The notes below the pieces were generated by a model. It ran no database searches. It saw only the letters and a program-made list of their open reading frames with translations, and had not been told where the DNA came from. DNA of 64,000 nt from assembly GCA_964437505.1 (NCBI GenBank), contig CAYTGU010000005.1:15645-79644 (forward strand), given 5' to 3'. Source of the DNA: an uncultured bacterium. GTDB lineage: Bacteria > JAHJDO01. A program made the position numbers and the translations under genes. Positions 25,321-64,000 of this stretch are shown here, piece after piece. Positions within the stretch are counted from its first letter, which is position 1; each line of letters begins with the position of its first letter.

Positions 25321-25554
25321 TTAGATTGCTTTCCCTAATCGCTCTGCCAGCCATACCTTGATAACAGATTGACGAGGCACCCCTAGACGCTTTGCTTCCT
25401 TATCCAATGAGTGAATCATCCAAATAGGGAAGTCCACATTAACCCTTTTCTGGTCTTGCTCAAGCCTTCTCGCCTTTGTAAGATCTAGATACTTAGAAAC
25501 GTTATTCCCTTCATCAAACTTTTTATCAAACTCTCTAGCTTTCATATATTTCAA
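25321..25554 (-). CDS. brnA: BrnA-family antitoxin (CopG/RHH-like), the antitoxin half of a BrnT/BrnA type II TA pair.
   Basis: 77 aa, overlapping the upstream toxin gene. The sequence ...LDKEAKRLGVPRQSVIKVWLAERL is a typical BrnA C-terminus. Confidence 0.7.
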   Translation of the reverse strand: MKYMKAREFDKKFDEGNNVSKYLDLTKARRLEQDQKRVNVDFPIWMIHSLDKEAKRLGVPRQSVIKVWLAERLGKAI

Positions 25555-25795
25555 CCTCCTCTTTTCGGGATTGTCTTACTGAAATAATTCTTATCTTTTC
25601 GCCGCGATAGGTAACAACTCCTGACCAATGCTTTCCAGAAATCATACCAATTACCAAATATCTTGGTTCATCACTGGTTCTTGCCGGAATTTCAATTAAG
25701 TCAGTATCCTCCCATAATAACTGCGCTTCAATAAAGTCAATACCATGTTTATTCTTATTGATTTCGCTTTTCTTAAGGTCAAACTCAAACTCCAT
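25535..25795 (-). CDS. brnT: BrnT-family toxin (DUF497/COG2929 ribonuclease toxin). The ORF is open to 25825, but the likely start is MEFEFD at 25795.
   Basis: MEFEFDLKKSEINKNKHGIDFIEA...YLVIG...VVTYR matches the BrnT N-terminal pattern (MKFEWD..K...N..KHG). Confidence 0.7.
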   Translation of the reverse strand: MEFEFDLKKSEINKNKHGIDFIEAQLLWEDTDLIEIPARTSDEPRYLVIGMISGKHWSGVVTYRGEKIRIISVRQSRKEEVEIYES

Positions 25796-25952
25796 AATAT
25801 AATTTATATACCAAAAAGATACCAATTGTCAACAAAAAAATCTCTTTTTCGTCATTGTAGAAACGTAGCGACGCTGCAATCTGTCATTCTTTTCGACGCA
25901 ACCGCTTGCTTTAGCTGGCGGTTATCTGGGCAGTCCCATTTGCTTTGTTGTG

Positions 25953-26531
25953 TTATTCTTTGATTTGATTGGGGAAGCCAGACGTTTGTTTCTTCAAGAC
26001 AATGGTGTATTCGATATGATCTTTAAATGGAATGACAAACAGCATCAGCCCTTTTTCCTCAAAGGTGGAGGATATGGTCAGGTTCCCTTCAGAATCTTTA
26101 GACATTACGCTAGTCCGGGATTTCTTTGCGATGCCAGGGAAAATGGCTAGACCAACAGTGGAGGGACTATCTGCCACATAATACAAGCAGCCCTGATTCC
26201 AGTTGAACGTCTTGGGTTGAAACACGAGCTCCTTGGTTTGAATTACTCCATTTGACCAATAGTAAACTATGGTCATCATTCGGTCTGACTCTTGCTGGAT
26301 TACTACTTCTGAATTATTTGAGATACTAGTAGCGCTAACAAAGGGATTGCCCGTCCTGAAGTATCCACTACAGTTAGATTTGAGAAAAATGTATGTCCCC
26401 GAGAAATCAGCGTGTTTGTTGTCGTACGTCTGACCTCTACCACTAGGCACAAACAATACGACACACCAGACAAGGCACCATAAAACAAATATCCCAAGAC
26501 CCCATAGACATCTATGTTTTTTTTGCATCAT
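25953..26531 (-). CDS. Hypothetical secreted or membrane-anchored protein (192 aa), with an N-terminal hydrophobic signal/anchor.
   Basis: MMQKKHRCLWGLGIFVLWCLVWCVVLFV is followed by a beta-rich domain. GC content is visibly higher than in its neighbours. No family was recognised. Confidence 0.5.
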   Translation of the reverse strand: MMQKKHRCLWGLGIFVLWCLVWCVVLFVPSGRGQTYDNKHADFSGTYIFLKSNCSGYFRTGNPFVSATSISNNSEVVIQQESDRMMTIVYYWSNGVIQTKELVFQPKTFNWNQGCLYYVADSPSTVGLAIFPGIAKKSRTSVMSKDSEGNLTISSTFEEKGLMLFVIPFKDHIEYTIVLKKQTSGFPNQIKE

Positions 26532-30440: not shown

Positions 30441-31825
30441 ATTAATTTATCGGCAAGTTTCCCTGCTACTTCGGAAATATCACCTGCTCCCATAAAAAGC
30501 ATTATATCTCCTTTCTCCATAGTATTGCTCAGATAACTGAGAATTCTACTTTTGTCAGGAATATATACGGCATTTTTATAGCCATGATTCTTCATAGTAC
30601 TAAAGATTATATCTGTATTCGCTCCCTTTATAGGAGCTTCTCCTGCGCTGTATACATCGGTTAATATAACCTTATCAGCTTTTGATAGAGACACAGCGAA
30701 CTGTTTGTAAAGTTTTTCAGTTCTTGTGTATCTATGCGGTTGAAATACAGCCACAATACGCTTTTTCTCTAAGTTTTTGGCTGTTTCTAAAACGGATTTA
30801 ATTTCAGCCGGATGATGAGCATAATCATCTATAACCATTATGTTGCCGATATGCGCCTTAATCTGAAATCTTCTGTCAACACCCCTGAAACTTTGCAGGC
30901 TTTCCTTAACTGCATCAAAGGATAATCCTATTTCCATACCAAGCGCAATTGCTGAAAGCGCATTAAGCACATTATGTTTTCCAGGAACACTGAGCGGAAA
31001 AGAGCCCAGTAATTCAGTATTTTTGTATACATCAAAACGTGTTGAAAGTCCTTCGCATATCAGGTTGTCAGCCCGTATATCAGCATTTTTGCTCATTCCA
31101 TAGGTTGTTATTGGAGTTTTAATTTTTTTTTTATGTAGTTTTGAAACCAGTTCTTTTACATTATTATTGTCAATGCAACAAAATATCCTGCCGGATTTAT
31201 CTATATGTTCTGCAAAATTGAGAAACGCATTTATAATATCTCCAAGATTCTCATAATGCTCCAGATGGTCTTCATCAATATTTGTAATAATGCCGAAATA
31301 CGGATTTAGTTTCAGAAAGGATTTATCGCTTTCGTCAGCCTCTGCTACAAACCATGGGCTTGCTCCAAAGCGGGCATTTCCCCCTAAAGAACTAATTTCA
31401 CCGCCTACAATTACTGTCGGGTCATACTCTGTTTCTATAAGCATATGCGCAATCATTGATGTTACTGTGGTTTTTCCATGACAACCTGTTACAAATATGC
31501 TCTTTTTGTTATTTGCCATTTTTGCGAGCAGTTCTGCTCTGTGAATTATTGGGATTTTTCTTTTTCTGGCCTCAACAAGTTCAGGGTTAGACTTTGAAAT
31601 AGCTGTGGAATAAACGATAAGATCCTGGCTGTTTATGTGCATGGAATTATGACCAGTGAAGATATGCGCGCCGTTTAGTCTTAGTTTATTGGTTATTGAT
31701 GAAGGTTTCTGGTCCGAGCCACTTACCTGATATCCTGATTTAAGTAGGATATAGGCAATCCCGCTCATTCCTATCCCACCAATACCAACAAAATGAATAG
31801 ATTTAGTTTCTTTTTGTATCATCAA
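30437..31825 (-). CDS. murC: UDP-N-acetylmuramate--L-alanine ligase.
   Basis: 462 aa with HFVGIGGIGMSG and GTHGKTTT Mur ligase motifs. Confidence 0.9.
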   Translation of the reverse strand: MMIQKETKSIHFVGIGGIGMSGIAYILLKSGYQVSGSDQKPSSITNKLRLNGAHIFTGHNSMHINSQDLIVYSTAISKSNPELVEARKRKIPIIHRAELLAKMANNKKSIFVTGCHGKTTVTSMIAHMLIETEYDPTVIVGGEISSLGGNARFGASPWFVAEADESDKSFLKLNPYFGIITNIDEDHLEHYENLGDIINAFLNFAEHIDKSGRIFCCIDNNNVKELVSKLHKKKIKTPITTYGMSKNADIRADNLICEGLSTRFDVYKNTELLGSFPLSVPGKHNVLNALSAIALGMEIGLSFDAVKESLQSFRGVDRRFQIKAHIGNIMVIDDYAHHPAEIKSVLETAKNLEKKRIVAVFQPHRYTRTEKLYKQFAVSLSKADKVILTDVYSAGEAPIKGANTDIIFSTMKNHGYKNAVYIPDKSRILSYLSNTMEKGDIMLFMGAGDISEVAGKLADKLI

Positions 31826-33500
31826 TCAATATAAAATCAATTAGTCTCTTATCGCTATTCACTTTAACTATTTTTGCCTTTACTGAATCTCCAAGCTGGA
31901 ATCTTCTCTTTGTGCGTCTTCCTACAAGCGCAAACTGTTTCTCAGAGAAAGTGTAGTAGTCATTCTTTAATGCGCTGACATGAACAAGCCCTTCAGCAAG
32001 AGTATCACTAAGCTCAATAAATAAGCCATATGGCTGAACACCGGATATTACCCCTTCAAATATGTCTCCCACTTTATTTTTCATAAACTCAACCTGTTTT
32101 AACTTAATTGTTTCTCTTTCTATTTTAAGAGCTATTTGCTCTCTTTCAGAAGCAATGCCTGCAATCTCAGGAAGGTTATCCATTCGGTTTTTAAACTTGT
32201 TTTTAAGAATTCTGTGAACAATTAAGTCAGGATAGCGCCTGATAGGGGAGGTAAAATGAGTATAGCAGTTTAATGCAAGCCCGAAGTGCCCAACATTCTT
32301 GGTGGAATATATTGCTTTTTGCATGCATGTTAAAAGGATCTGGCTAATAAGAACGTGGTCCTTTTCCCCATTTGTTTTATGCAGGAATCTCTGTATGTAT
32401 TTTGGATTTTTGGATTTATTTTGATCAAATTTGTAATTCAGCGTTTTTGCAAGCATTGCAAAGTCTTTTATTTTTAGGTCGTCTGGAGTTTCATGAATAC
32501 GATAGATCATAGGAACCTTATTCTTAGTAATGTATTCTGCTACGCACTGATTTGCAAGAAGCATGAATTCCTCGATCAAAACATGACTGGATAATCTCTT
32601 CTTCTTTTGAATATCAAGAACTTTCCCATTCCCGTCAAGCGAGATTTTAACCTCGGGGACATCAAAATCAATGTATCCTCTATCCAATCTTTTTTTATCT
32701 AATATCTTGCTTAGTTTGTACATAATTTTTAGAGCTGATGATATTCCTGTGTGTTTACTTGCCTCGTTAGAATATATCAATTCTTCTGCAGATTCATATG
32801 ATAACCTTGCCTTGCTTTTGATTATGCTCTCAAAGATTTCGTATTCTGTAATATTGCCCTGCGCATCTATTTTTATCATGACTGTTAAAGTTAATCTGTT
32901 TTCGTCAGGCTTTAAACTGCACAGATTCTCAGAAAGCTTGGAAGGCAGCATTGGAATCACTTTATCAGGCAGGTATATGCTTGTTCCTCTGGAAAGAGCT
33001 TGGTTGTCTATATGCTTATTTTTATTTACATAATGATCAACATCCGCTATGTGAACGCCCAGTGAGAAACCTCCTTTCTCAGTTTTCTCGATAGATACTG
33101 CATCGTCAAAATCCTTTGCATCTTCAGGGTCTATTGTAAAACATGTAAGTTCTGTTAGGTTGCGGCGCTTTTTAATTTCTTCTTTAGAAATAAACGGATC
33201 AATTCTTTCACATTCTTCTATTACTGATTTAGGAAAAGTTGGTGATATTTTAAATTCTTCTAAAATACTCTTAATAGGATCAACTATCTTTGAAGCGGTA
33301 TATCTGCCACCTCTGTCTTTCACAATTAGTCCTTGTTTGAAAATTTCCTTTACAGTGCGGCGAAATTTTGGATATGCAGTTCTGTGAATGCCCATTGTTC
33401 TTGCTAGTTCTTTTATTTTTAATGGACGCTTTGATTTTTTAAGACAAGATATAATTTTATCTGTAAGGGGACTTCGATATTCGGATTCGGAAATTTTCAC
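31803..33500 (-). CDS. rnr: RNase II/R-family 3'-5' exoribonuclease (short RNase R-like, with an N-terminal winged-helix and a C-terminal S1 domain).
   Basis: 565 aa with an RNB catalytic region (FTIDPEDAKDFDDAVS) and a C-terminal S1 domain (GDIFEGVISGV...). Confidence 0.8.
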   Translation of the reverse strand: MKISESEYRSPLTDKIISCLKKSKRPLKIKELARTMGIHRTAYPKFRRTVKEIFKQGLIVKDRGGRYTASKIVDPIKSILEEFKISPTFPKSVIEECERIDPFISKEEIKKRRNLTELTCFTIDPEDAKDFDDAVSIEKTEKGGFSLGVHIADVDHYVNKNKHIDNQALSRGTSIYLPDKVIPMLPSKLSENLCSLKPDENRLTLTVMIKIDAQGNITEYEIFESIIKSKARLSYESAEELIYSNEASKHTGISSALKIMYKLSKILDKKRLDRGYIDFDVPEVKISLDGNGKVLDIQKKKRLSSHVLIEEFMLLANQCVAEYITKNKVPMIYRIHETPDDLKIKDFAMLAKTLNYKFDQNKSKNPKYIQRFLHKTNGEKDHVLISQILLTCMQKAIYSTKNVGHFGLALNCYTHFTSPIRRYPDLIVHRILKNKFKNRMDNLPEIAGIASEREQIALKIERETIKLKQVEFMKNKVGDIFEGVISGVQPYGLFIELSDTLAEGLVHVSALKNDYYTFSEKQFALVGRRTKRRFQLGDSVKAKIVKVNSDKRLIDFILIDDTKRN

Positions 33501-33511
33501 TTTAAAATGTC

Positions 33512-33578
33512 CCCTCTGTCATTGCTGAGAGTGAAATTCTCGGCCACGCCGCTACGCTTCTCGCAATGTCATTTTTGC
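33512..33578 (+). repeat. Copy A of a ~55-nt repeat element (core ...GAGAGTGAAATTCTCGGCCACGCCGCTACGCTTCTCGCAATGTCATTTTT). It lies downstream of the MNT gene and can fold as an imperfect hairpin.
   Basis: Read directly. It is homologous to copy B (34345-34397, same orientation) and copy C (25846-25886, opposite orientation). Confidence 0.7.
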
Positions 33579-33590
33579 TATTAAATGAGG

Positions 33591-33920
33591 TCAAGAAATC
33601 TCTATGCCGAATTTTCTAATCTCAATAATAAGCGGAGAATCATGATTTCTGTATTCTTGCAGAGAAACAGGAATTGGTTCAATACGAGTATCTATCCTGC
33701 GGGTTTTTTTTAAAAGAAATTGAAGTTCGTCTGTGGTGTCCTTCCCGAATTTAGAAGAAATAATGCAAAGGTCAATGTCGCTTTCTTTTTTTGCTTTCCC
33801 TCTGGCATAGGAACCAAAAAGAATTAATTTCTCAACAGGCGTACCTTCTTCCTCTAAGAGATTTCTAAACCTTAAAGCGATATTTTGTATGTTTTTTCTT
33901 ATAGTTTTCTTTTTAGCCAT
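33591..33920 (-). CDS. Nucleotidyltransferase (MNT-type), the antitoxin partner of the HEPN toxin.
   Basis: 109 aa with the GSYARG...DIDL minimal nucleotidyltransferase motif. It overlaps the HEPN gene. Confidence 0.8.
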   Translation of the reverse strand: MAKKKTIRKNIQNIALRFRNLLEEEGTPVEKLILFGSYARGKAKKESDIDLCIISSKFGKDTTDELQFLLKKTRRIDTRIEPIPVSLQEYRNHDSPLIIEIRKFGIEIS

Positions 33921-34285
33921 AGATATATGTCCTTCGCTCTCTTAAAATATCCTTCCGTATATTCTTTAGTTGCTTTTTTGAAAAATTTGCGTTTATAGTC
34001 ATTATACCTTGCCTCAATGTTAAAACTGGTTATTTCAGCCAAAAGATCTAATTGTTCTTCAGAAAATTCGATACCACTTAATTCTGACAATCTTACTAAA
34101 TTATGTACATAAGGAGCTTGCTGTTTTGTTTTCTTGACCACCAATGATTTAATAATCTTCTCAAGAAATAAATGACAAAAGAAAAGACAATGATGATATC
34201 TCTTTGAGATGAAAAGACTTTTAGCGGTTTTAAGGTCATCTTCAGCCCCTTCAAACCAGTAATTAATCATCTCGCTAATTTTCAT
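33899..34285 (-). CDS. HEPN-domain protein, the toxin of a HEPN/MNT type II or VII TA module.
   Basis: 128 aa helical protein with the typical HEPN layout and an E..RY-like C-terminal region (NIEARYNDY). It is co-oriented with, and overlaps, the MNT gene. Confidence 0.75.
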   Translation of the reverse strand: MKISEMINYWFEGAEDDLKTAKSLFISKRYHHCLFFCHLFLEKIIKSLVVKKTKQQAPYVHNLVRLSELSGIEFSEEQLDLLAEITSFNIEARYNDYKRKFFKKATKEYTEGYFKRAKDIYLWLKRKL

Positions 34286-34344
34286 GTTTCTATTTTATCA
34301 CCTCTCTCATAAAAATCCACTAATATTTATATTTGATCAAGTCG

Positions 34345-34397
34345 GAGAGTCACAGAGAGATTGCTTCGTCGCTTACACTTCTCGCAATGACATTTTA
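34345..34397 (+). repeat. Copy B of the same repeat element (GAGAGTCACAGAGAGATTGCTTCGTCGCTTACACTTCTCGCAATGACATTTTA). It lies between the ppiD-like stop and the HEPN start.
   Basis: Read directly. It forms a direct repeat with copy A across the HEPN/MNT cassette. Confidence 0.7.
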
Positions 34398-35858
34398 GTC
34401 TAGAGATGTGGATTTAGATCGTATTTTATCAAGATTATTTACAATCTTTGCTTCCTGCTTTAGGTTTTTGAACCATTTCTCATATACTAACTGCTTCTTT
34501 TTTTGCATAAGAGTCTGTTTTATCTGTTCCTTCTGTGCATCAAATTCTTCTTTATCAGCGGCTTTTTTCTCAACAAGTTCAATCACAAATATACGTTGGG
34601 GTTCTGACACTTTTTTTATATCATCTTTTTTTAGGAGGAACACTTCTGCTATGAGTTTAGGGGCATATCCTAGGTCTTTTGCATACACTCCTCTTTCAAA
34701 AAACTCTGTTTGCTTAATCTCATAACCGGACTTTTTTGCCAACTTTTCAATGTTTTTTGCCCCGAACCGAGATTCTCTGGTTCGGGGAAATTTTTTAATG
34801 AACTCATCTGCTTTTTTCTCAGCTAGTTCCTTTGCTTTAAGAACAGTTAATCTTTTGCGTACTTCATCCTTCACTTCTTCTATCTGATCAGGTATGTAGG
34901 ATGGTTTTAGATCCACAAGTCTTAATATACAAAATCCTTTAGCTGTTTTAACAGGGTTGCTTATATCATCTTTGCTAAGAGAAAATGCGCTTTGAGAAAA
35001 CTCACGGGAATGGCCTATTTCTAAAATTTCCTCTGTTTCTGCGAAATACCCGGTCTGCTTTGATGAGAGGTTCTCTTTCTTCAATACCTCTTTCCATTTA
35101 TTTTCTTCTCCCAGGTCAATAGAAAGATCATATGCTCTCTCTTCATCTTTAATAAGAACGTATTCTATATTAACCCTATCAGGCTGCTTGAACGACTTTT
35201 TATTCTTAGAAAAATATTCAGTAATATCTTCATCATTCACAGATACCTTAGTTTCGAATTCATCTACACTGAAGCGTATATATTTGATTTTTACTTTTTC
35301 GTTTTTTACCATAAATTCGTCTAAAATTACATTGTCGCTTATTATAACTGGCTCAGTGATTCTTTTCCAAAGATGCTCAAGTGCAAGAGATTGCCTAATC
35401 CCGTTCTCAATTCTTTGCCACTGAGAAGCAGGGATGCCGTTTACATACTGTTCAAACTTTGCCTTATCAAACCCGCCTTTCTTGTTTTTAAATACAGGAT
35501 CTTGTTTTATCCTATCTATAATCTCTTTATCTGATATTTTTATACGCTGTTTCTTTATCTCCTGCATAAGGAGTCTTTGGTCTATTAATTGATTTAGAAC
35601 CTGTTTCTCTAAGTCCAGATTTTTTTTGATTCTGTCAAATTGATCTCCATACATTTTTCTATAATTTCTCTCCGTACTTATTAGAGCATAGCTGAACTCT
35701 TCATGCTTGATAACATCTCCATTCACTTTTGCTACAGCAATATTCGTTTTTGCTTTGAATGTCATATGCATTCCCCATGAAAAGAATATTGTAGCTAGGA
35801 AGCTTAATGCCGTTATCCACATTATTGGCTTCATGTTCTTTCTTATAGACTTAAGCAC
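34395..35858 (-). CDS. Periplasmic chaperone / peptidyl-prolyl isomerase PpiD-like (SurA N-terminal-like plus PpiC rotamase domains), N-terminally membrane-anchored.
   Basis: 487 aa with an N-terminal TM segment (IMWITALSFLATIFF) and a parvulin-type domain. Confidence 0.7.
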   Translation of the reverse strand: MLKSIRKNMKPIMWITALSFLATIFFSWGMHMTFKAKTNIAVAKVNGDVIKHEEFSYALISTERNYRKMYGDQFDRIKKNLDLEKQVLNQLIDQRLLMQEIKKQRIKISDKEIIDRIKQDPVFKNKKGGFDKAKFEQYVNGIPASQWQRIENGIRQSLALEHLWKRITEPVIISDNVILDEFMVKNEKVKIKYIRFSVDEFETKVSVNDEDITEYFSKNKKSFKQPDRVNIEYVLIKDEERAYDLSIDLGEENKWKEVLKKENLSSKQTGYFAETEEILEIGHSREFSQSAFSLSKDDISNPVKTAKGFCILRLVDLKPSYIPDQIEEVKDEVRKRLTVLKAKELAEKKADEFIKKFPRTRESRFGAKNIEKLAKKSGYEIKQTEFFERGVYAKDLGYAPKLIAEVFLLKKDDIKKVSEPQRIFVIELVEKKAADKEEFDAQKEQIKQTLMQKKKQLVYEKWFKNLKQEAKIVNNLDKIRSKSTSLD

Positions 35859-48460: not shown

Positions 48461-50074
48461 ATGCAAAAGACTAAGGAAGATTTAGAAGCATTATATGAAC
48501 AGAGTTTTAAAAATATTAAAAAAGGGGATGTGGTAAAGGGTGAAATTATTGAAATAGGACGAAATGAGGTAGTAGTGGATATAGGGTATAAGTCTGAAGG
48601 AGTAATCCCCATTGATGAATTTAAGGATGCATCTAAGCTAAAGGTTGGAGATGAGACCGAAGTTTTACTTGAGAAAATTGAAGATGAATCAGGCGTAGTT
48701 GTCTTATCAAAAGAAAAGGCTGGCCAAATGAAGTTTTGGAACGAAATCGTGGCGGCATTTTCAGAGGAAAAAAGCGTCACAGGCAGACTAATAAGAAAGA
48801 TAAAAGGTGGATTTTCTGCAGATATCGGAGTTGAGGGGTTCTTACCTACTTCACAGTCAGATATTAAGATAATTGCTGATTTTGAAAATATGGTTAATAA
48901 GGATTTAGAGTTTAAGATCATAAAATTGAATAAAATGCGTAGAAATGTTGTGCTTTCTCGCAATGCGTTGTTTAAGAAGACACAAACAGAGGATAGAGAA
49001 AAACTTTTTGGAGAGCTAAAGGAAGGACAGATTAGAAAAGGATTCATTAAAAATATAACAGATTTTGGAGCCTTTGTTGACCTTGGAGGAATTGATGGAT
49101 TGCTTCATATAACAGATATATCATGGGGGCGCATATCGCATCCTTCAGACGTGCTTTCTCTTGGACAGGAGATAGAAGTTATGATTTTATCAATTGATAA
49201 AGAAAAGAATAGAGTATCTCTCGGTCTAAAGCAGAAAGCTACCAATCCGTGGTTAGATATAGATAAAAAATATCCTATTGGTTCAAAGGTTAAAGGAAAA
49301 GTAGTGAATATTACTGCCTATGGGGCTTTTGTTGAATTAGAAGAAGGAATAGAGGGCTTAATGCATATATCTCAGATGTCATGGACTAAAAAGATTATGC
49401 ATCCGTCTGAAGTTGTAAATGTGGGAGATGTAGTAGAAGCTATAGTTTTAAGTCTTGAAAAGGGAGAGGAAAAAATTTCTTTAGGTATGAAACAGTTAGA
49501 AGTAAATCCGTGGGAAAAGGTAGAAAAAAAATATCCTGTTGGAACAAGGATTAAAGGCCTAATTAGGAACATAACTGATTATGGTGTATTTGTTGAAGTA
49601 GAAGAAGGAGTAGATGGTCTGGTACATATCTCGGATTTATCATGGTCCACGAGGGTAAATGATCCGTCAAAAATATTTAAAAAGGGTGATGAAATAGAAG
49701 TTGTTGTTTTATCTATAGACTCAGATAATAAAAAAATATCGCTAGGTGTAAAACAGCTTACACCTGACCCTTGGGAAAAGTTATCTGATAAATACGAAGT
49801 TGGAATGAATATGGAATGTAAAGTAATAAAGATAACTAAATTTGGTATTTTTGTTGAGCTGGAACAAGGAGTAGAAGGGTTGGTTCATGTTTCAGAGCTG
49901 GCTGAAGAAGAGAATCTGGAGAAAAAATATAAAATTGGCATGAAGATCACTGCTAGAATAGTTAGAATTGATTTACGGGAAAGGAAGATAGGTCTAAGTA
50001 TAAAGGAATCTGACAATAAGCAGGAAAAAGAAGAAATAAAAATTGAAGACAAGCAAACTAAAAAAGAAGAATAG
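48461..50074 (+). CDS. rpsA: 30S ribosomal protein S1.
   Basis: 537 aa with multiple S1 repeats (G..V.G.V..I...G.FV). An AGGAGG RBS precedes it. Confidence 0.9.
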   Translation: MQKTKEDLEALYEQSFKNIKKGDVVKGEIIEIGRNEVVVDIGYKSEGVIPIDEFKDASKLKVGDETEVLLEKIEDESGVVVLSKEKAGQMKFWNEIVAAFSEEKSVTGRLIRKIKGGFSADIGVEGFLPTSQSDIKIIADFENMVNKDLEFKIIKLNKMRRNVVLSRNALFKKTQTEDREKLFGELKEGQIRKGFIKNITDFGAFVDLGGIDGLLHITDISWGRISHPSDVLSLGQEIEVMILSIDKEKNRVSLGLKQKATNPWLDIDKKYPIGSKVKGKVVNITAYGAFVELEEGIEGLMHISQMSWTKKIMHPSEVVNVGDVVEAIVLSLEKGEEKISLGMKQLEVNPWEKVEKKYPVGTRIKGLIRNITDYGVFVEVEEGVDGLVHISDLSWSTRVNDPSKIFKKGDEIEVVVLSIDSDNKKISLGVKQLTPDPWEKLSDKYEVGMNMECKVIKITKFGIFVELEQGVEGLVHVSELAEEENLEKKYKIGMKITARIVRIDLRERKIGLSIKESDNKQEKEEIKIEDKQTKKEE

Positions 50075-61963: not shown

Positions 61964-62184
61964 ATGCAGTAGTTCCAGGAGCATTTCCGCATTCAAAAGC
62001 ACGATGGTGTGCAGATAATCCAGAGTTCCCAGCTTTTTTAGAGCGTTTGGCAGATAAGGTACCGCTTGGACGTATAGGACGTCAGGATGAAATGGCTGGC
62101 GCAGTTATTTTTCTTGCTTCTGACGAAGCGTCGTATGTAACGGGACACACTTTAGTTGTAGATGGTGGATGGACAGCGTGGTAA
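61915..62184 (+). pseudogene. C-terminal fragment of an SDR-family dehydrogenase, fused or juxtaposed to the preceding fragment.
   Basis: IRVNAVVPG...PLGRIGRQDEMAGAVIFLASDEASYVTGHTLVVDGGWTAW is a canonical SDR C-terminus. The N-terminal cofactor-binding half is missing. Confidence 0.6.
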
Positions 62185-62209
62185 TCAATATAATCAGAGG
62201 AGAGAAAAG

Positions 62210-62992
62210 ATGAAAATGCGAGCAAGCAGGGTACTGCAGAAACTTCGTGCAGGTGAAATAGTGAGTTGTTTTAAATTAAACTTGTCCTGTGGTCGTGCCG
62301 CAGATATTGCAGCCATGAGTGAGTTTGATTGTCTCTGGCTGGATATGGAACATGTGCCTAGTGACTGGTCTGTAATAGAAAAACAAATCTGGGCGGCTAA
62401 AGCTCATGACGTTGATGTCATGGTGCGTGTATCCCGTGGTGGGTACAGCGATTACATCAAACCTTTGGAATTGGATGCTTCTGGTATCATGGTGCCTCAT
62501 ATCATGAGCCTGGCAGATGCAGAGAACGTTGTCAGGATGACTAGATTTCATCCTGTTGGTCGCCGTCCCGTTGACGGTGGCAATACAGATGGTGCATACG
62601 GCAAGATTGATTTTGTCAAATATCTTAAACAGGCAAATGAACAAAGATTTGTCGCCGTACAGATAGAGGACCCTGAACCGTTGGATGACTTGGAAGCCAT
62701 TGCTTCTCTTGAAGGTATAGACATGATCTTTTTCGGACCAGCGGATTTTAGCCATGGGATTGGCGCACCTGGTGAATGGAATTGTACCAAGTTGGTGGAG
62801 ACACGCAAGCGCATAGCTGAAGTCTGTACAGAGCATGGAAAATTTGCAGGTACTATTGGGAGCATTGATAATTTAAATGAGCTTATCAGTATGGGTTATC
62901 ACTTTATTAGTGTAGGCGCCGATGTAGTGGGTCTCGGTCAATATTGTGACAGGGTAATGATGGAATTCAGAAATGCATTATTAGGTAAATAA
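62210..62992 (+). CDS. HpcH/HpaI-family aldolase (2-keto-3-deoxy-sugar-acid aldolase, e.g. KDR/HpaI-like).
   Basis: About 260 aa with a TIM-barrel class II aldolase pattern (...LWLDMEH..., ...VRV...). A CAGAGGAGAG RBS precedes it. Local GC is visibly higher. Confidence 0.7.
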   Translation: MKMRASRVLQKLRAGEIVSCFKLNLSCGRAADIAAMSEFDCLWLDMEHVPSDWSVIEKQIWAAKAHDVDVMVRVSRGGYSDYIKPLELDASGIMVPHIMSLADAENVVRMTRFHPVGRRPVDGGNTDGAYGKIDFVKYLKQANEQRFVAVQIEDPEPLDDLEAIASLEGIDMIFFGPADFSHGIGAPGEWNCTKLVETRKRIAEVCTEHGKFAGTIGSIDNLNELISMGYHFISVGADVVGLGQYCDRVMMEFRNALLGK

Positions 62993-63263
62993 ATTTACTT
63001 AAAATGTCATCGCTTTCGCTTATTTGTGCTTTACGCCTTATATTGCAGATTGTTTTATTACCTCTGGATCTTTGAAAATTTTTTCTAACATGGTAGCCTC
63101 CCTTTCTGGCTTTTATAGCCAATAGGAGAGTACCATATTATGTTAAGCTATTAAAGAAACGAATAATCGTAACTGTCGTGTACACCCAGATTTATTCACA
63201 GAGCGAAACTTACCATAACCCAGTGCTTATCATAAAACACATGATCAGATCAAGAAAGCCGGG

Positions 63264-63623
63264 ATGATTGAAGAGGCAAAGTTTGTTTTGTCTTGCGATG
63301 AATACAAGTATGAGATCAGCGAAGCTATGCGTGATGCTGCTAAGAAAACAAAGACTGGCATTGGAGCGAATCTCGCGCTATTAGACGCAGCAAGGCGATA
63401 TGAAACCAGAGTATGGTGCGATATCTATAACCTTGGCGGAAGTCATGGTCGAATTGGTAATGCTTATCGCCATTTAGCGGATCACGTAAATTTTGGTAAC
63501 AGTTTAGCTGTGGAAAGTAATGGAAAAATTTGGATGAGAAAATCGGCAACTAAATTTGAAAGAAGTAAAGATAATAGTCAGGGCGATCTTGTTTGTAGCA
63601 GATTAAATTGTCTTGAAAGTTAA
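63264..63623 (+). CDS. Hypothetical protein (119 aa), possibly a gene fragment.
   Basis: An ORF with no recognised family. It lies in a degraded GC-richer region next to a transposase remnant. Confidence 0.3.
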   Translation: MIEEAKFVLSCDEYKYEISEAMRDAAKKTKTGIGANLALLDAARRYETRVWCDIYNLGGSHGRIGNAYRHLADHVNFGNSLAVESNGKIWMRKSATKFERSKDNSQGDLVCSRLNCLES

Positions 63624-64000
63624 GGAGTTAATCCTTTGGTAAGAAGAGTTATGAGAACTTGTTTTGGGTCCAAGCCTTTGAGTTTGGCAGTTTGGATAAT
63701 AGTTGAAATAAGAGATACGTTCTTGGTTCTCTGGTCAGAGCGATTGCCGAAGATAATTTCGTTCAGCAAGCACTTTGGAAGGGGATTCTCCGTTAAGATG
63801 AGGACAAGATTTGGAGAAAGGGCAATGCTGAACTCTTGCTGCAACAGGATGAGAATAACTCATTCTTTGAATTCGCCTTTTTTAATTAATTGGACGTTTA
63901 TGTCTGTAAGTTCTTCAATGAGGTCTCTATGATGATAGTAATTGTTGAGAAGTTTTTGAACTTGCTTGCGAAGTTTAGGAGGAATAGTCGTTCTCTTCTT
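63620..64000 (-). mobile_element. IS66-family transposase (TnpC) C-terminal remnant. The reading frame is interrupted by an in-frame TGA at 63860-63862 and continues past the window edge.
   Basis: ...NEIIFGNRSDQRTKNVSLISTIIQTAKLKGLDPKQVL matches the conserved IS66 TnpC tail (YLFAGSDEGGERAA.IYSLIGTAKLNGIDPEAYL). The upstream in-frame part is ...LIKKGEFKE*VILILLQQ. Confidence 0.55.

What the first reader, a model, noticed from the sequence alone, without database searches (positions are those of the whole stretch)
33501..34400. HEPN/MNT toxin-antitoxin cassette bracketed by ~55-nt imperfect direct repeats between the ppiD-like gene and rnr
Copy A (33512-33578) and copy B (34345-34397) share a core. 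A reads gagagtgaaattctcggccacgccgctacgcttctcgcaatgtcattttt. B reads gagagtcacagagagattgcttcgtcgcttacacttctcgcaatgacatttta. They lie in the same orientation and exactly flank the two-gene HEPN/MNT module. Copy B begins at the ppiD-like stop codon and copy A ends 20 nt before the rnr start, as if a cassette had integrated with duplication of a site. Copy A also has internal dyad symmetry (ctctgtcattgc ... gcaatgtcat). A cassette-like, repeat-bounded TA module suggests a recombination or mobilisation mechanism. No canonical GTTRRRY core is visible, so it does not look like a classic integron attC. Alternatively it could be a conserved regulatory or structured-RNA element.
Basis: seen in the sequence. 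Interest (0 to 1): 0.68.

Follow-up and report, generated by a model that had tools for sequence, protein, structure and literature searches.

The report
REP-type hairpin repeats flanking inserted toxin-antitoxin cassette
The two "direct repeats" around the HEPN/MNT toxin-antitoxin genes are real, but they are copies of a very widespread small palindromic (REP-like) repeat that arrived with a 920-bp piece of foreign DNA. They are not a duplicated integration site or an integron site.

Summary
The two copies share a significant core of about 30 nt (26/30), not about 55 nt, in direct orientation on the coding strand. A degenerate third copy lies at 25849-25885.

The repeats belong to a large dispersed family of hairpin repeats, consensus yGTC-ATTGC-GA-[variable hairpin]-GNR-GCAAT-Cyy. 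I found it in more than 120 IMG/VR contigs, in plasmids of Novosphingobium, Methylocystis, Methylosinus, Halomonas and Legionella, in Helicobacter prophages, and in Bacteroidota and Parcubacteria MAGs. Its closest described relatives are the "CGTC-tagged" REPs of Di Nocera et al. 2013.

Sister genomes have ppiD overlapping rnr, with no TA module and no repeat at that junction. The block 33501-34420 is therefore a 920-nt insertion that carries both copies, and it is not a target-site duplication. No integron attC core sites are present.

The same HEPN-MNT cassette (80-97% amino-acid identity) sits in at least five other genomic contexts. Most of these lack the repeat. In one other context (L130/L131), homology to the window begins exactly at the stem of the left repeat, so that copy travelled with the cassette.

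All three copies in the window border the only two TA modules, HEPN/MNT and BrnT/BrnA. My verdict is ordinary REP-type repeats hitch-hiking with mobile TA DNA. A causal role for the repeats in cassette capture is not excluded.

The parts
33501..34420 (-). 920-nt inserted block, absent from sister genomes. Order on the minus strand: 24-nt leader with a new ppiD C-terminus and stop, REP copy B, half of a second REP, TA promoter, HEPN, MNT, REP copy A with an inverted head, then 16 nt carrying a new Shine-Dalgarno sequence (GAGGGG) for rnr.
   Evidence: blastn against L009 loses homology at 34421 and regains it at 33478. Junction sequences were read. The sister junction is ...AAAATACG GC GTGCACAGTAA, where the rnr GTG lies inside the ppiD 3' end.
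34355..34393 (-). REP copy B, a complete unit: TGTC-ATTGC-GA-GAAGTGTAAGCGAC-GAA-GCAAT-CTCT. It starts 2 nt after the ppiD stop codon.
   Evidence: nhmmer with a profile of 81 IMG/VR units gives E = 5e-10 over the full length. It is 35/37 identical to an L056 copy. blastn gives 94% over 33 nt to Methylocystis rosea plasmids.
34339..34352 (-). 5' half of a different, classical CGTC-type REP (tGTGAC-TCTCCG-ACTT), directly upstream of the cassette promoter.
   Evidence: The same string, CGTCATTCTCCGACTT, abuts the cassette in L131/L132. The full hairpin CGTCATTCTCCGACTTGGCGGAGGAATCC lies downstream of the cassette in L137/L138.
34286..34329 (-). Promoter and 5' leader of the TA cassette. Together with the genes and 17 nt downstream (33574-34329), this is the segment conserved in every genomic context.
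   Evidence: blastn of the insert against L130, L131, L133, L135, L136, L137 and L140. Alignment A1. L135 shows TTGACT-17-GATAAAAT at this position.
33899..34285 (-). HEPN-domain protein (128 aa), the predicted toxin.
   Evidence: PF05168, E = 2e-19. 76 homologues were found, mostly on short contigs.
33591..33920 (-). Minimal nucleotidyltransferase, MNT (109 aa), the predicted antitoxin. It overlaps HEPN by 22 nt.
   Evidence: PF01909, E = 1.2e-13. The GS...DID motif is visible in the translation.
33543..33574 (-). REP copy A, the 5' part of a unit: TGAC-ATTGC-GA-GAAGCGTAGCGGC-GTG-GC. The 3' stem is disrupted (GCcgagAATTTC).
   Evidence: nhmmer E = 7e-4, model positions 5-23 only. Sequence read. 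It begins 3-5 nt after the end of the conserved cassette.
33517..33531 (-). Inverted unit head (CTCTCAGCAATGACA). It pairs with the head of copy A to form a mini heads-out dimer, and it is also an imperfect inverted repeat of the head of copy B.
   Evidence: Hairpin of -19.1 kcal/mol, z = -2.5. Inverted repeat I3, arms 33517-33536 and 34373-34392.
25849..25885 (+). Third, degenerate REP copy (CGTCATTGTAGAAACGTAGCGACGCTGCAATCTGT), about 55 nt upstream of the BrnT start and abutting its promoter.
   Evidence: nhmmer E = 0.02, model positions 2-35. Sequence read.
25321..25795 (-). BrnT/BrnA toxin-antitoxin module inserted between ftsA (followed by a lineage-specific 192-aa ORF) and ftsZ. It is the only other TA module in the window.
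   Evidence: PF04365 E = 3e-24 and PF12441 E = 2e-7. The other small ORFs in the window are housekeeping genes or have no Pfam match.
34395..35858 (-). ppiD-like chaperone. Its last 8 codons (SKSTSLD*) are supplied by the insert, where sister genomes have RAQ*.
31803..33500 (-). RNase R/II (rnr). In sister genomes its start overlaps the ppiD stop.

Best explanation
The two repeats are copies of a dispersed, hairpin-forming REP-type repeat family. It has a constant base, (C/T)GTC-ATTGC-GA...G(A/T/C)(A/G)-GCAAT-C, and a variable tip hairpin that covaries. It occurs singly or as heads-out inverted dimers.

The copies are not a duplicated target. They lie inside a 920-nt block of foreign DNA (REP - HEPN - MNT - REP) that was inserted into a ppiD/rnr junction where the two genes formerly overlapped.

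The HEPN-MNT operon, with its own promoter, is a horizontally mobile two-gene cassette found in many phyla. In the sub-lineage that reached this genome it had picked up REP units in its flanks, and these hitch-hiked with it. This is shown for the left copy and inferred for the right copy. A sister REP of the same subtype sits beside the window's other TA cassette.

The REP units themselves most likely work as folded single strands. The conserved base and 5' tag would be recognised in trans by a still-unidentified protein, probably through a strand-specific DNA process of the IS200/RAYT type. This is inference. In the ppiD-HEPN-MNT-rnr transcript the units would form intercistronic stem-loops, but they are not intrinsic terminators.
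For: Shown:
1. Family membership. A profile built from those copies recovers the window copies. Copy B matches Methylocystis, Methylosinus and Halomonas plasmids directly. The consensus dimer matches 55 unannotated places on 10 plasmids, at least 40 of them on one Novosphingobium replicon, and also Helicobacter canis prophages.
2. Structure. There are 132 distinct inner sequences that keep end-to-end complementarity. The mean terminal stem is 2.0 pairs against 0.53 in shuffles. 64 dimers were found, 52 of them heads-out.
3. Generic location. A unit sits between every gene of a phage capsid/connector module, at the ruvC start in a Bacteroidota MAG, and after proS in a Parcubacteria MAG.
4. Empty sites. 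L006-L009 and L165/L166 have ppiD overlapping rnr and no REP in about 70 kb.
5. Cassette mobility without the REP. HEPN-MNT at 80-97% amino-acid identity lies between other housekeeping genes, and the conserved segment corresponds to window 33574-34329.
6. Hitch-hiking. Homology between the window and L131 starts at the REP stem foot and runs through the REP and the half-REP into the promoter. The flank-only score is 43, against 18.6 +/- 3.7 for shuffles (maximum 39 of 1000).
7. Common origin of the window copies. All three carry GAGAAG/GAAA plus a GTA(A) loop. That combination is seen in 0 of 113 long-form IMG/VR units.
8. The three copies occupy exactly the three gaps of at least 40 nt that border the two TA modules, out of 20 such gaps. 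By chance this is 1 in 1140.
9. No terminator-like site and no Rfam family.

Inferred: a strand-specific DNA process. 61 of 68 singleton units share one strand within their contig, while orientation relative to genes is only about 56% sense.
Against: - Only 64 kb of this genome could be read, so the genome-wide REP count and the adjacency to TA modules are unknown.
- The sister genomes are 76-83% identical in ppiD. An intermediate ancestor with a single REP at the junction therefore cannot be excluded.
- The right copy (A) is not found next to the cassette in any other context, so its co-arrival is inferred.
- The perfect REP-TA adjacency in the window, and the fact that the shared mobile segment begins at a REP stem, could mean the repeats take part in the insertion rather than just riding along.
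- No trans-acting protein was identified.
- The IMG/VR sample was ascertained with a pattern that fixes the constant parts, so covariation could be assessed only in the tip.
Confidence: 0.62

Rival explanations
1. REP-mediated cassette capture. A circular or linear [REP + HEPN-MNT] unit integrates by recombination at a resident REP hairpin, either site-specifically like attC x attC or through short homology. This leaves one REP on each side in direct orientation.
For: - The flanking copies are in direct orientation and abut the conserved cassette on both sides.
- The DNA shared between two unrelated contexts starts exactly at the REP stem.
- All three window REPs border TA cassettes.
- A half-REP (CGTCATTCTCCGACTT) lies at the cassette's left edge here and in L131, while the full hairpin is downstream of the cassette in L137.
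- A possible matching 3' half (GGCCGAGAAT) lies right of the cassette, P of about 0.002 per 90 nt, found post hoc.
Against: - Five sister empty sites have no REP.
- Novel DNA extends 24-31 nt to the left and 16 nt to the right beyond the REPs.
- Four of the six cassette contexts have no REP at the border.
- The BrnTA module has a REP on one side only, and in the opposite orientation.
- No recombinase gene was seen next to the block.
- The putative 3' half-site can equally be read as the tail of copy A with a 4-nt insertion.
Confidence: 0.17
2. In-situ colonisation. The TA cassettes were inserted first. REP units active in this lineage later settled in the only permissive new intergenic DNA of a 95%-coding genome.
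For: - The genome is very compact, with only 20 gaps of at least 40 nt in 64 kb.
- The three copies share a private subtype, which is consistent with local amplification.
- The right copy is not seen with the cassette elsewhere.
Against: - The left copy sits in the same position relative to the cassette in a different genome context.
- Seventeen other gaps, several of them longer, carry no copy.
- Sister genomes have none.
Confidence: 0.15
3. The 920-nt block is a non-autonomous IS200/IS605-like (PATE-like) single-strand transposon. Two similar subterminal hairpins on the same strand serve as its left and right ends, the TA genes are cargo, and a Y1 HUH transposase mobilises it in trans.
For: - There are two hairpin units on the same strand. 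The left hairpin foot lies about 31 nt inside the left end of the insert, and the foot of the copy-A hairpin lies about 16 nt inside the right end.
- There is no target duplication and no long terminal inverted repeats.
- The family shows strand bias within contigs that is independent of gene direction.
- CGTC-type REPs have no known dedicated transposase (PMC3733652).
Against: - No TnpA or RAYT was found near the block or between inverted units in the sampled loci.
- The second TA module has one REP only.
- The same cassette occurs with one REP or none.
- The insert ends could be defined only to within a few nucleotides.
Confidence: 0.05
4. The repeats are integron attC sites or a CALIN remnant, or alternatively a TA-specific regulatory or structured RNA.
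For: They are palindromic sites with a conserved base and a variable centre flanking a small promoter-bearing cassette. TA modules are typical cargo of chromosomal integrons (general knowledge).
Against: - No RYYYAAC or GTTRRRY boxes. Neither intergenic region contains GTT or AAC at all.
- Units are 24-45 nt long, not 57-141 nt.
- The same units lie between phage structural genes and housekeeping genes.
- No Rfam match.
- Both orientations relative to genes occur.
Confidence: 0.01

Closest known systems
CGTC-tagged REPs (Di Nocera, De Gregorio & Rocco 2013, BMC Genomics 14:522, PMC3733652). Examples are Neisseria dRS3 and Rickettsia RPE-4 and RPE-6.
   Same: - A 5' unpaired tag of CGTC or TGTC (276 of 300 sampled units).
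- The stem starts with AT.
- A short unpaired tail (C-CAG or C-TCA).
- Units are often paired as inverted dimers.
- Copies are intergenic, high in copy number and spread over many phyla.
- No flanking dedicated transposase.
- A classical member (CGTCATTCTCCGACTTGGCGGAGGAATCC) lies next to the same cassette in L137.
   Different: - The described families have uninterrupted 8-9 bp stems with 4-5 nt loops. This family has a 5-bp ATTGC/GCAAT base, a GA/GNR internal loop (sometimes a second GA/GA module), and a tip hairpin of variable length.
- The peptides the paper lists for intragenic copies (VIPAKAGI, SFPRKRES, VIPGLDPGI) correspond to ATTCC-type units, not ATTGC-type units.
- The exact sequence was not found in the searchable literature.
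GTAG REPs / REPINs with RAYT transposases (Nunvar 2010; Bertels & Rainey 2011; Ton-Hoang 2012, PMC3333891).
   Same: Short imperfect palindromes with a conserved 5' tetranucleotide, doublets in inverted orientation, and presumed mobilisation as single-stranded hairpins.
   Different: The head is (C/T)GTC, not GTAG. No RAYT gene flanked by these units was seen. Sequence conservation extends across phyla and into phages, whereas REPIN families are usually specific to a species or genus.
IS200/IS605 family and their non-autonomous derivatives (PATEs).
   Same: Two similar subterminal hairpins on one strand, no terminal inverted repeats, no target duplication, and possible passenger genes.
   Different: No transposase and no defined cleavage tetranucleotides. 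The cassette also occurs with one hairpin or none.
Integron gene cassettes with attC.
   Same: A small promoter-bearing or promoterless cassette bounded by structured palindromic sites with a conserved base and a variable centre. TA modules are frequent cargo.
   Different: No R'/R'' core sites, no integrase, units much shorter than attC, and no array.
HEPN/MNT toxin-antitoxin modules (PF05168 + PF01909 pairs).
   Same: Two overlapping small genes with these domains and their own promoter, patchily distributed across phyla.
   Different: The gene order here is HEPN first, then MNT. Activity was not tested. No obvious Rx4-6H motif was checked.

Membership tests
CGTC-tagged REP superfamily | Unpaired 5' tetranucleotide CGTC (variants TGTC and CCTC) | tested here: met
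   Heads in 300 sampled units: TGTC 151, CGTC 125. Copy B has TGTC, the third copy has CGTC, and copy A has TGAC.
CGTC-tagged REP superfamily | Stem beginning with complementary A-T, T-A pairs, and a short unpaired tail (consensus CCA) | tested here: met
   The ATTGC...GCAAT base is invariant by construction of the search. The most common 3-nt tails after GCAATC are CAG (72), TCA (50) and TCG (37) of 300.
CGTC-tagged REP superfamily | Continuous stem of 8-9 bp with a loop of 4-5 nt (families CGTC-1 to CGTC-4) | tested here: not met
   The family has a 5-bp base, a GA/GNR internal loop and a variable tip. It is therefore at best a new family of the superfamily. Figure 2 of the paper could not be read.
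REP elements in general | Many dispersed, mostly intergenic copies per genome, as singletons and inverted dimers | tested here: met
   At least 40 places on one 1.76-Mb Novosphingobium replicon, all unannotated. Up to 10 copies per 10 kb in viral contigs. 64 dimers. Only 3 copies in this 64-kb window.
REPIN/RAYT system | GTAG head and a RAYT gene flanked by the repeats | tested here: not met
   The head is yGTC. The single ORFs enclosed by inverted units in the sampled loci look like phage genes by inspection (a terminase-like protein, small putative DNA-binding proteins and a large tail-fibre-like protein); Pfam was not run on them, and none resembles a transposase. Bacterial genomes were not searched for RAYT genes.
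Target-site duplication of an integrating element | A single copy of the repeated sequence at the empty site | tested here: not met
   L006, L007, L008, L009 and L165 have no copy at the ppiD-rnr junction, and no copy anywhere in about 70 kb.
Integron attC | R'' (RYYYAAC) and R' (GTTRRRY) core sites bracketing an imperfect palindrome of 57-141 nt, with intI or an array nearby | tested here: not met
   There is no GTT or AAC in either intergenic region on either strand. Units are 24-45 nt long. The IntegronFinder covariance model was not available.
IS200/IS605-type or PATE element | Same-strand subterminal hairpins, no TSD or TIR, and a Y1 transposase (in cis or in trans) with defined cleavage sites | tested here: inconclusive
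   The hairpin arrangement and the lack of a TSD fit. No transposase was identified, cleavage sites are not definable, and the second TA module has one unit only.
MITE | Terminal inverted repeats plus a target-site duplication | tested here: not met
   There is only an imperfect 15-20 nt inverted repeat, between the head of copy B and the inverted head at 33517-33531. No TSD is present at the insert ends.
Type II/VII HEPN-MNT toxin-antitoxin module | Adjacent or overlapping small genes with a HEPN domain and a minimal nucleotidyltransferase domain | tested here: met
   PF05168 E = 2e-19 and PF01909 E = 1.2e-13, with a 22-nt overlap. Toxicity and neutralisation are not testable here.
Rfam structured RNA | A match to any curated covariance model | tested here: not met
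   No hit at the gathering threshold in the window or in six REP-rich loci. Only a chance snoRNA hit at E = 0.41 in 33400-34500.

The most novel reading that the evidence does not exclude
The REP hairpins are not passengers but the recombination sites through which small promoter-bearing cassettes, here TA modules, are captured and moved. This would be either an attC-like folded-DNA system without an integron integrase, or a PATE-like single-strand transposon using (C/T)GTC-tagged hairpins as ends. It would also identify the long-missing mobilisation route for CGTC-type REPs, and explain why one approximately 30-nt hairpin is conserved from Alphaproteobacteria to Patescibacteria and phages.
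Probability: 0.12. Interest if true: 0.75.

Novelty: new member of a known kind. Interest (0 to 1): 0.36.

Why it matters
For this window, the result removes a tempting but wrong reading (a duplicated integration site or a novel cassette recombination site). It replaces that reading with a documented 920-nt insertion of a horizontally mobile HEPN-MNT operon into a pair of translationally coupled genes, ppiD and rnr. The insert rewrote the ppiD C-terminus and supplied a new ribosome-binding site for rnr.

More generally, the ATTGC-type unit is a very widespread hairpin repeat that spans several phyla and also occurs in phages. It generates spurious ORFs such as 'MRLLRRSAPRNDK...' and '...SLRGAERRSNL'. 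I could not find it described by sequence in the searchable literature. Its constant base with a variable tip, and its within-contig strand bias, point to recognition by a conserved but unknown trans-acting protein. If its adjacency to TA cassettes proves general, it would connect REP biology with the unexplained mobility of TA modules.

Tried and rejected
- Third 12-mer hit at 48954: it lies in coding sequence and scores below any useful level with the profile (E = 1.8). Treated as chance.
- Exact subfamily pattern ATGNCATTGCGAGAAGYGTA in IMG/VR: no hits. The relaxed subfamily pattern gave one true low-GC hit (L170) and one chance coding hit.
- Literature search by sequence strings and by REP-derived peptide strings: nothing relevant. 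One primer coincidence.
- Supplements of Di Nocera 2013 searched for ATTGC-type sequences and peptides: none.
- RepRanger paper: no sequence match.
- A 2026 bioRxiv preprint on non-coding element mining could not be opened.
- Looked for a transposase among the single ORFs enclosed by inverted units in viral contigs: they look like phage genes by inspection, and Pfam was not run on them.
- HEPN relatives in viral contigs: none useful.
- MAFFT alignment of the left flanks misplaced the gap. It was replaced by a pairwise local alignment.
- L163 and L164 proved identical to the window at all three junctions compared (both REP-bearing junctions around HEPN-MNT and the REP-BrnT junction), so they gave no polymorphism information.
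- The ftsA-ftsZ region of sister genomes could not be reached. L165 carries a different large insertion there, and the look-ups were exhausted. The empty-site test for the BrnTA + REP block was therefore not possible.
- The window's own genome was not in the GTDB representative collection.
- The organism could be placed only as an unclassified deep lineage.


Full report
**1. What is there**

All four genes lie on the minus strand:
- a ppiD-like chaperone, 34395-35858
- a HEPN protein, 33899-34285
- a minimal nucleotidyltransferase (MNT), 33591-33920, which overlaps HEPN by 22 nt
- RNase R/II (rnr), 31803-33500

The two intergenic regions contain a shared sequence. The repeat finder gives 33553-33575 against 34374-34396 at 21/23 identity. 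A local alignment gives 26/30 with one gap and a score of 38, against 14.1 +/- 2.1 (maximum 22) for shuffles.

Read on the coding strand, the copies are:
- Copy B: TAAAATGTCATTGCGAGAAGTGTAAGCGACGAAGCAATCTCT, directly after the ppiD stop codon.
- Copy A: CAAAAATGACATTGCGAGAAGCGTAGCGGCGTGGCCGAGAATTTCACTCTCAGCAATGACAG, 18 nt after the MNT stop codon.

Copy A folds into a good hairpin (-19.1 kcal/mol, z = -2.5 on the + strand). Copy B alone does not fold better than shuffles.

**2. The repeat belongs to a very large family**

Copy B resembled a repeat I recalled from spurious ORFs in many genomes, so I scanned IMG/VR with CATTGCGAG-N(2-14)-GCGACGAAGCAATC. By my rough estimate, fewer than one hit would be expected by chance for 23 specified bases.

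The 300 units extracted from these loci show the following architecture:
- a head of TGTC (151) or CGTC (125)
- a constant base, ATTGC-GA ... G(A/T/C)(A/G)-GCAAT-C
- an optional second G-GA...GA-C module
- a tip hairpin of variable length and sequence that keeps its complementarity (GCGAAGC, GCCGAAGGC, GGCCGCCGCAGCGGCC, GTCCCGATTTATCGGGAC and others)

There are 132 distinct inner sequences. Their mean terminal stem is 2.0 pairs, against 0.53 in shuffles. About 40% of units (128 of 306) form inverted dimers: 64 dimers, 52 of them heads-out.

Copy B is 35/37 identical to a unit on an unrelated viral contig, L056.

A profile HMM built only from 81 viral-contig units finds three copies in the window:
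- copy B, E = 5e-10, full length
- copy A, E = 7e-4, 5' half only
- a third, degenerate copy at 25849-25885 on the + strand, E = 0.02

Copy B itself matches Methylocystis, Methylosinus and Halomonas plasmids by blastn. The consensus dimer matches 55 unannotated places on plasmids of Novosphingobium (at least 40 on one replicon), Methylosinus, Methylocystis, Halomonas and Legionella. It also matches Helicobacter canis prophages.

Units also occur next to housekeeping genes in two MAGs:
- Bacteroidota: at the ruvC start, where it produces the spurious N-terminus MRLLRRSAPRNDK.
- Parcubacteria: after proS.

One unit also sits between each gene of a phage capsid, connector and head-completion module.

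There is no Rfam family, even at E <= 1, and no terminator-like site.

Orientation relative to neighbouring genes is nearly random (177 sense, 138 antisense). Within contigs, however, singleton units are strongly co-oriented (61 of 68). This points to a process at the DNA-strand level rather than an RNA function. That step is inference.

**3. The block is an insertion and the empty site has no repeat**

Relatives with 76-83% ppiD identity (L006-L009) and L165/L166 have ppiD directly overlapping rnr. Their junction reads ...GATAAAATACGGCGTGCACAGTAAAAAA..., with the rnr GTG inside the ppiD 3' end.

Homology between the window and L009 breaks at 34421 and resumes at 33478. Reading the junctions, the insert is 33501-34420, or 920 nt. 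It supplies a new ppiD C-terminus (SKSTSLD*) and a new Shine-Dalgarno sequence for rnr.

None of the sister loci, about 70 kb in total, contains any copy of the repeat. Both copies therefore belong to the inserted DNA, which rules out a target-site duplication.

attC is also excluded. The two intergenic regions contain neither GTT nor AAC on either strand.

**4. The cassette moves, mostly without the repeat**

HEPN homologues at 80-97% identity, each with its MNT partner, lie in other contexts:
- L130/L131: downstream of a glycosyltransferase-9 gene; in L131 the cassette is followed by cobS.
- L133/L134: next to AbiEii.
- L135: between fmt and enolase.
- L139/L140: in a PIN/RHH TA island.
- L136 and L137: two further contexts.

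More distant relatives are in Patescibacteria, Omnitrophota, Sedimentisphaerales and Bacteroidota MAGs.

The segment conserved in all contexts corresponds to window 33574-34329. It runs from the promoter to 17 nt past the MNT stop codon. Copy A begins 3-5 nt beyond its right end.

Most contexts have no ATTGC-type unit at the border. The cassette therefore does not need the repeat to move.

One other context does share the repeat. The left flank of L131 (and L130) aligns with the window from exactly the REP stem foot (ATTGC against ATTTC), through the REP, through a half copy of a classical CGTC-type REP (CGTCATTCTCCGACTT), and into the promoter. The flank-only score is 43, against 18.6 +/- 3.7 for shuffles, with a maximum of 39 in 1000.

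The left repeat therefore travelled with the cassette into two unrelated insertion sites. The complete form of the second REP (CGTCATTCTCCGACTTGGCGGAGGAATCC) lies downstream of the cassette in L137/L138.

**5. Association with TA modules in this window**

The third copy lies about 55 nt upstream of a BrnT/BrnA module inserted between ftsA and ftsZ.

The window is about 95% coding, with 20 gaps of at least 40 nt. The three copies occupy exactly the three such gaps that border the only two TA modules. The chance of this is 1 in 1140 for unweighted gaps.

All three copies share a private subtype, GAGAAG/GAAA plus a GTA(A) loop. That combination occurs in 0 of 113 long-form units of the IMG/VR sample, although it is present in one low-GC viral contig. 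The three copies therefore have a common source.

**6. Interpretation**

The best-supported reading is that these are ordinary REP-type hairpin repeats that hitch-hiked with horizontally acquired TA DNA. This is shown for the left copy and inferred for the other two.

Their closest described relatives are the CGTC-tagged REPs of Di Nocera et al. 2013 (PMC3733652). The similarities are the same head, a stem that begins with AT, a short tail, inverted dimers, wide phyletic spread and no dedicated transposase. The stem architecture differs, and I could not find the ATTGC type in that paper's text or supplements. I therefore file it as a further family of that superfamily rather than a member of CGTC-1 to CGTC-4.

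Three rivals remain possible:
- REP-mediated capture or integration of the cassette
- later in-situ colonisation of the new intergenic DNA
- a PATE-like single-strand transposon

The evidence that keeps a causal role alive is:
- the perfect REP-TA adjacency
- the start of the shared DNA at the REP stem
- the half-REP at the edge of the cassette
- a possible matching 3' half at 33533-33545 (P of about 0.002, found post hoc). This can equally be read as the tail of copy A with a 4-nt insertion.

The evidence against a causal role is:
- the REP-free empty sites
- novel DNA extending beyond the REPs
- REP-free copies of the same cassette
- the one-sided, oppositely oriented REP at BrnTA

**7. Context and limits**

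The organism is an unclassified deep-branching bacterium. Its FtsZ falls from 83-96% identity in a handful of MAGs to 44-46% in any named phylum.

Only 64 kb of its genome was available. L001-L005, L163 and L164 match the window wherever they were compared and appear to be the same population: L001 over 1,300 nt around the insert, L002-L005 by the same HEPN protein and gene context, and L164 at the three REP junctions. The empty-site test could not be done for the BrnTA block.

The family sample came from a pattern that fixes the constant parts. The covariation evidence therefore applies only to the tip hairpin.

Noticed in passing
window 25321-25885: A BrnT/BrnA toxin-antitoxin module, with its own TTGACA-17-TATATA promoter, is inserted inside the dcw cluster between ftsA and ftsZ. 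A degenerate copy of the same REP subtype lies immediately upstream of it.
   Followed up: partly
window 25953-26531 (minus strand): A lineage-specific 192-aa ORF with an N-terminal hydrophobic segment and no Pfam match lies between ftsA and the REP/BrnTA block. It is absent from the sister loci examined (tblastn).
   Followed up: partly
L165 15838-18424: In a sister MAG (GCA_030652805.1), the position after ftsA is occupied by a 1696-aa UvrD-helicase/AAA/MTES_1575 protein that looks defence-related. The ftsA-ftsZ junction therefore appears to be an insertion hot spot in this clade.
   Followed up: no
window 34339-34352; L131 about 690-705; L137 about 1345-1375: A second, classical CGTC-type REP (CGTCATTCTCCG-ACTTGG-CGGAGGAAT-CC) is associated with the same cassette. 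It is a 5' half at the left edge in the window and in L131, and a full hairpin downstream in L137. A possible 3' half (GGCCGAGAAT) lies at window 33536-33545. Whether the cassette sits inside a split REP is unresolved.
   Followed up: partly
window 33501-33516 and 34398-34420: The insert rewrote host genes. The last residues of ppiD change from RAQ* to SKSTSLD*. rnr loses its overlap with ppiD and gains a GAGGGG Shine-Dalgarno sequence from the insert. In L006-L008 rnr is about 55 residues shorter at the N-terminus.
   Followed up: partly
L162 5910-5947; L153 6469-6575: REP units create spurious or extended ORFs, for example a RuvC N-terminus 'MRLLRRSAPRNDK' and an antisense '...SLRGAERRSNL'. 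This is a likely source of many hypothetical-protein annotations in databases.
   Followed up: no
L142 3800-4000 and 4710-4810: In a Patescibacteria MAG, the HEPN-MNT pair is flanked on both sides by (AAAAAYC)n heptamer-like repeats that run up to the start codons.
   Followed up: no
L139/L140 about 270-2000: In another context, the HEPN-MNT cassette sits in a small island of PIN/RHH and PIN/HTH toxin-antitoxin pairs.
   Followed up: no
window about 35.9-36.1 kb: Gene orientation and GC skew both switch sign here, with a cumulative skew minimum near 36 kb beside tRNA-Arg(TCT). This could be a replication origin, or simply the boundary between divergent operons.
   Followed up: no
window 62000-64000: GC content is higher here (0.41 against about 0.36). 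The region has several long gaps (258 and 271 nt), an 89-aa fragment matching only the C-terminal part of enoyl-ACP reductase (adh_short_C2), and two small ORFs without Pfam matches. It may be another accessory or decaying region.
   Followed up: no
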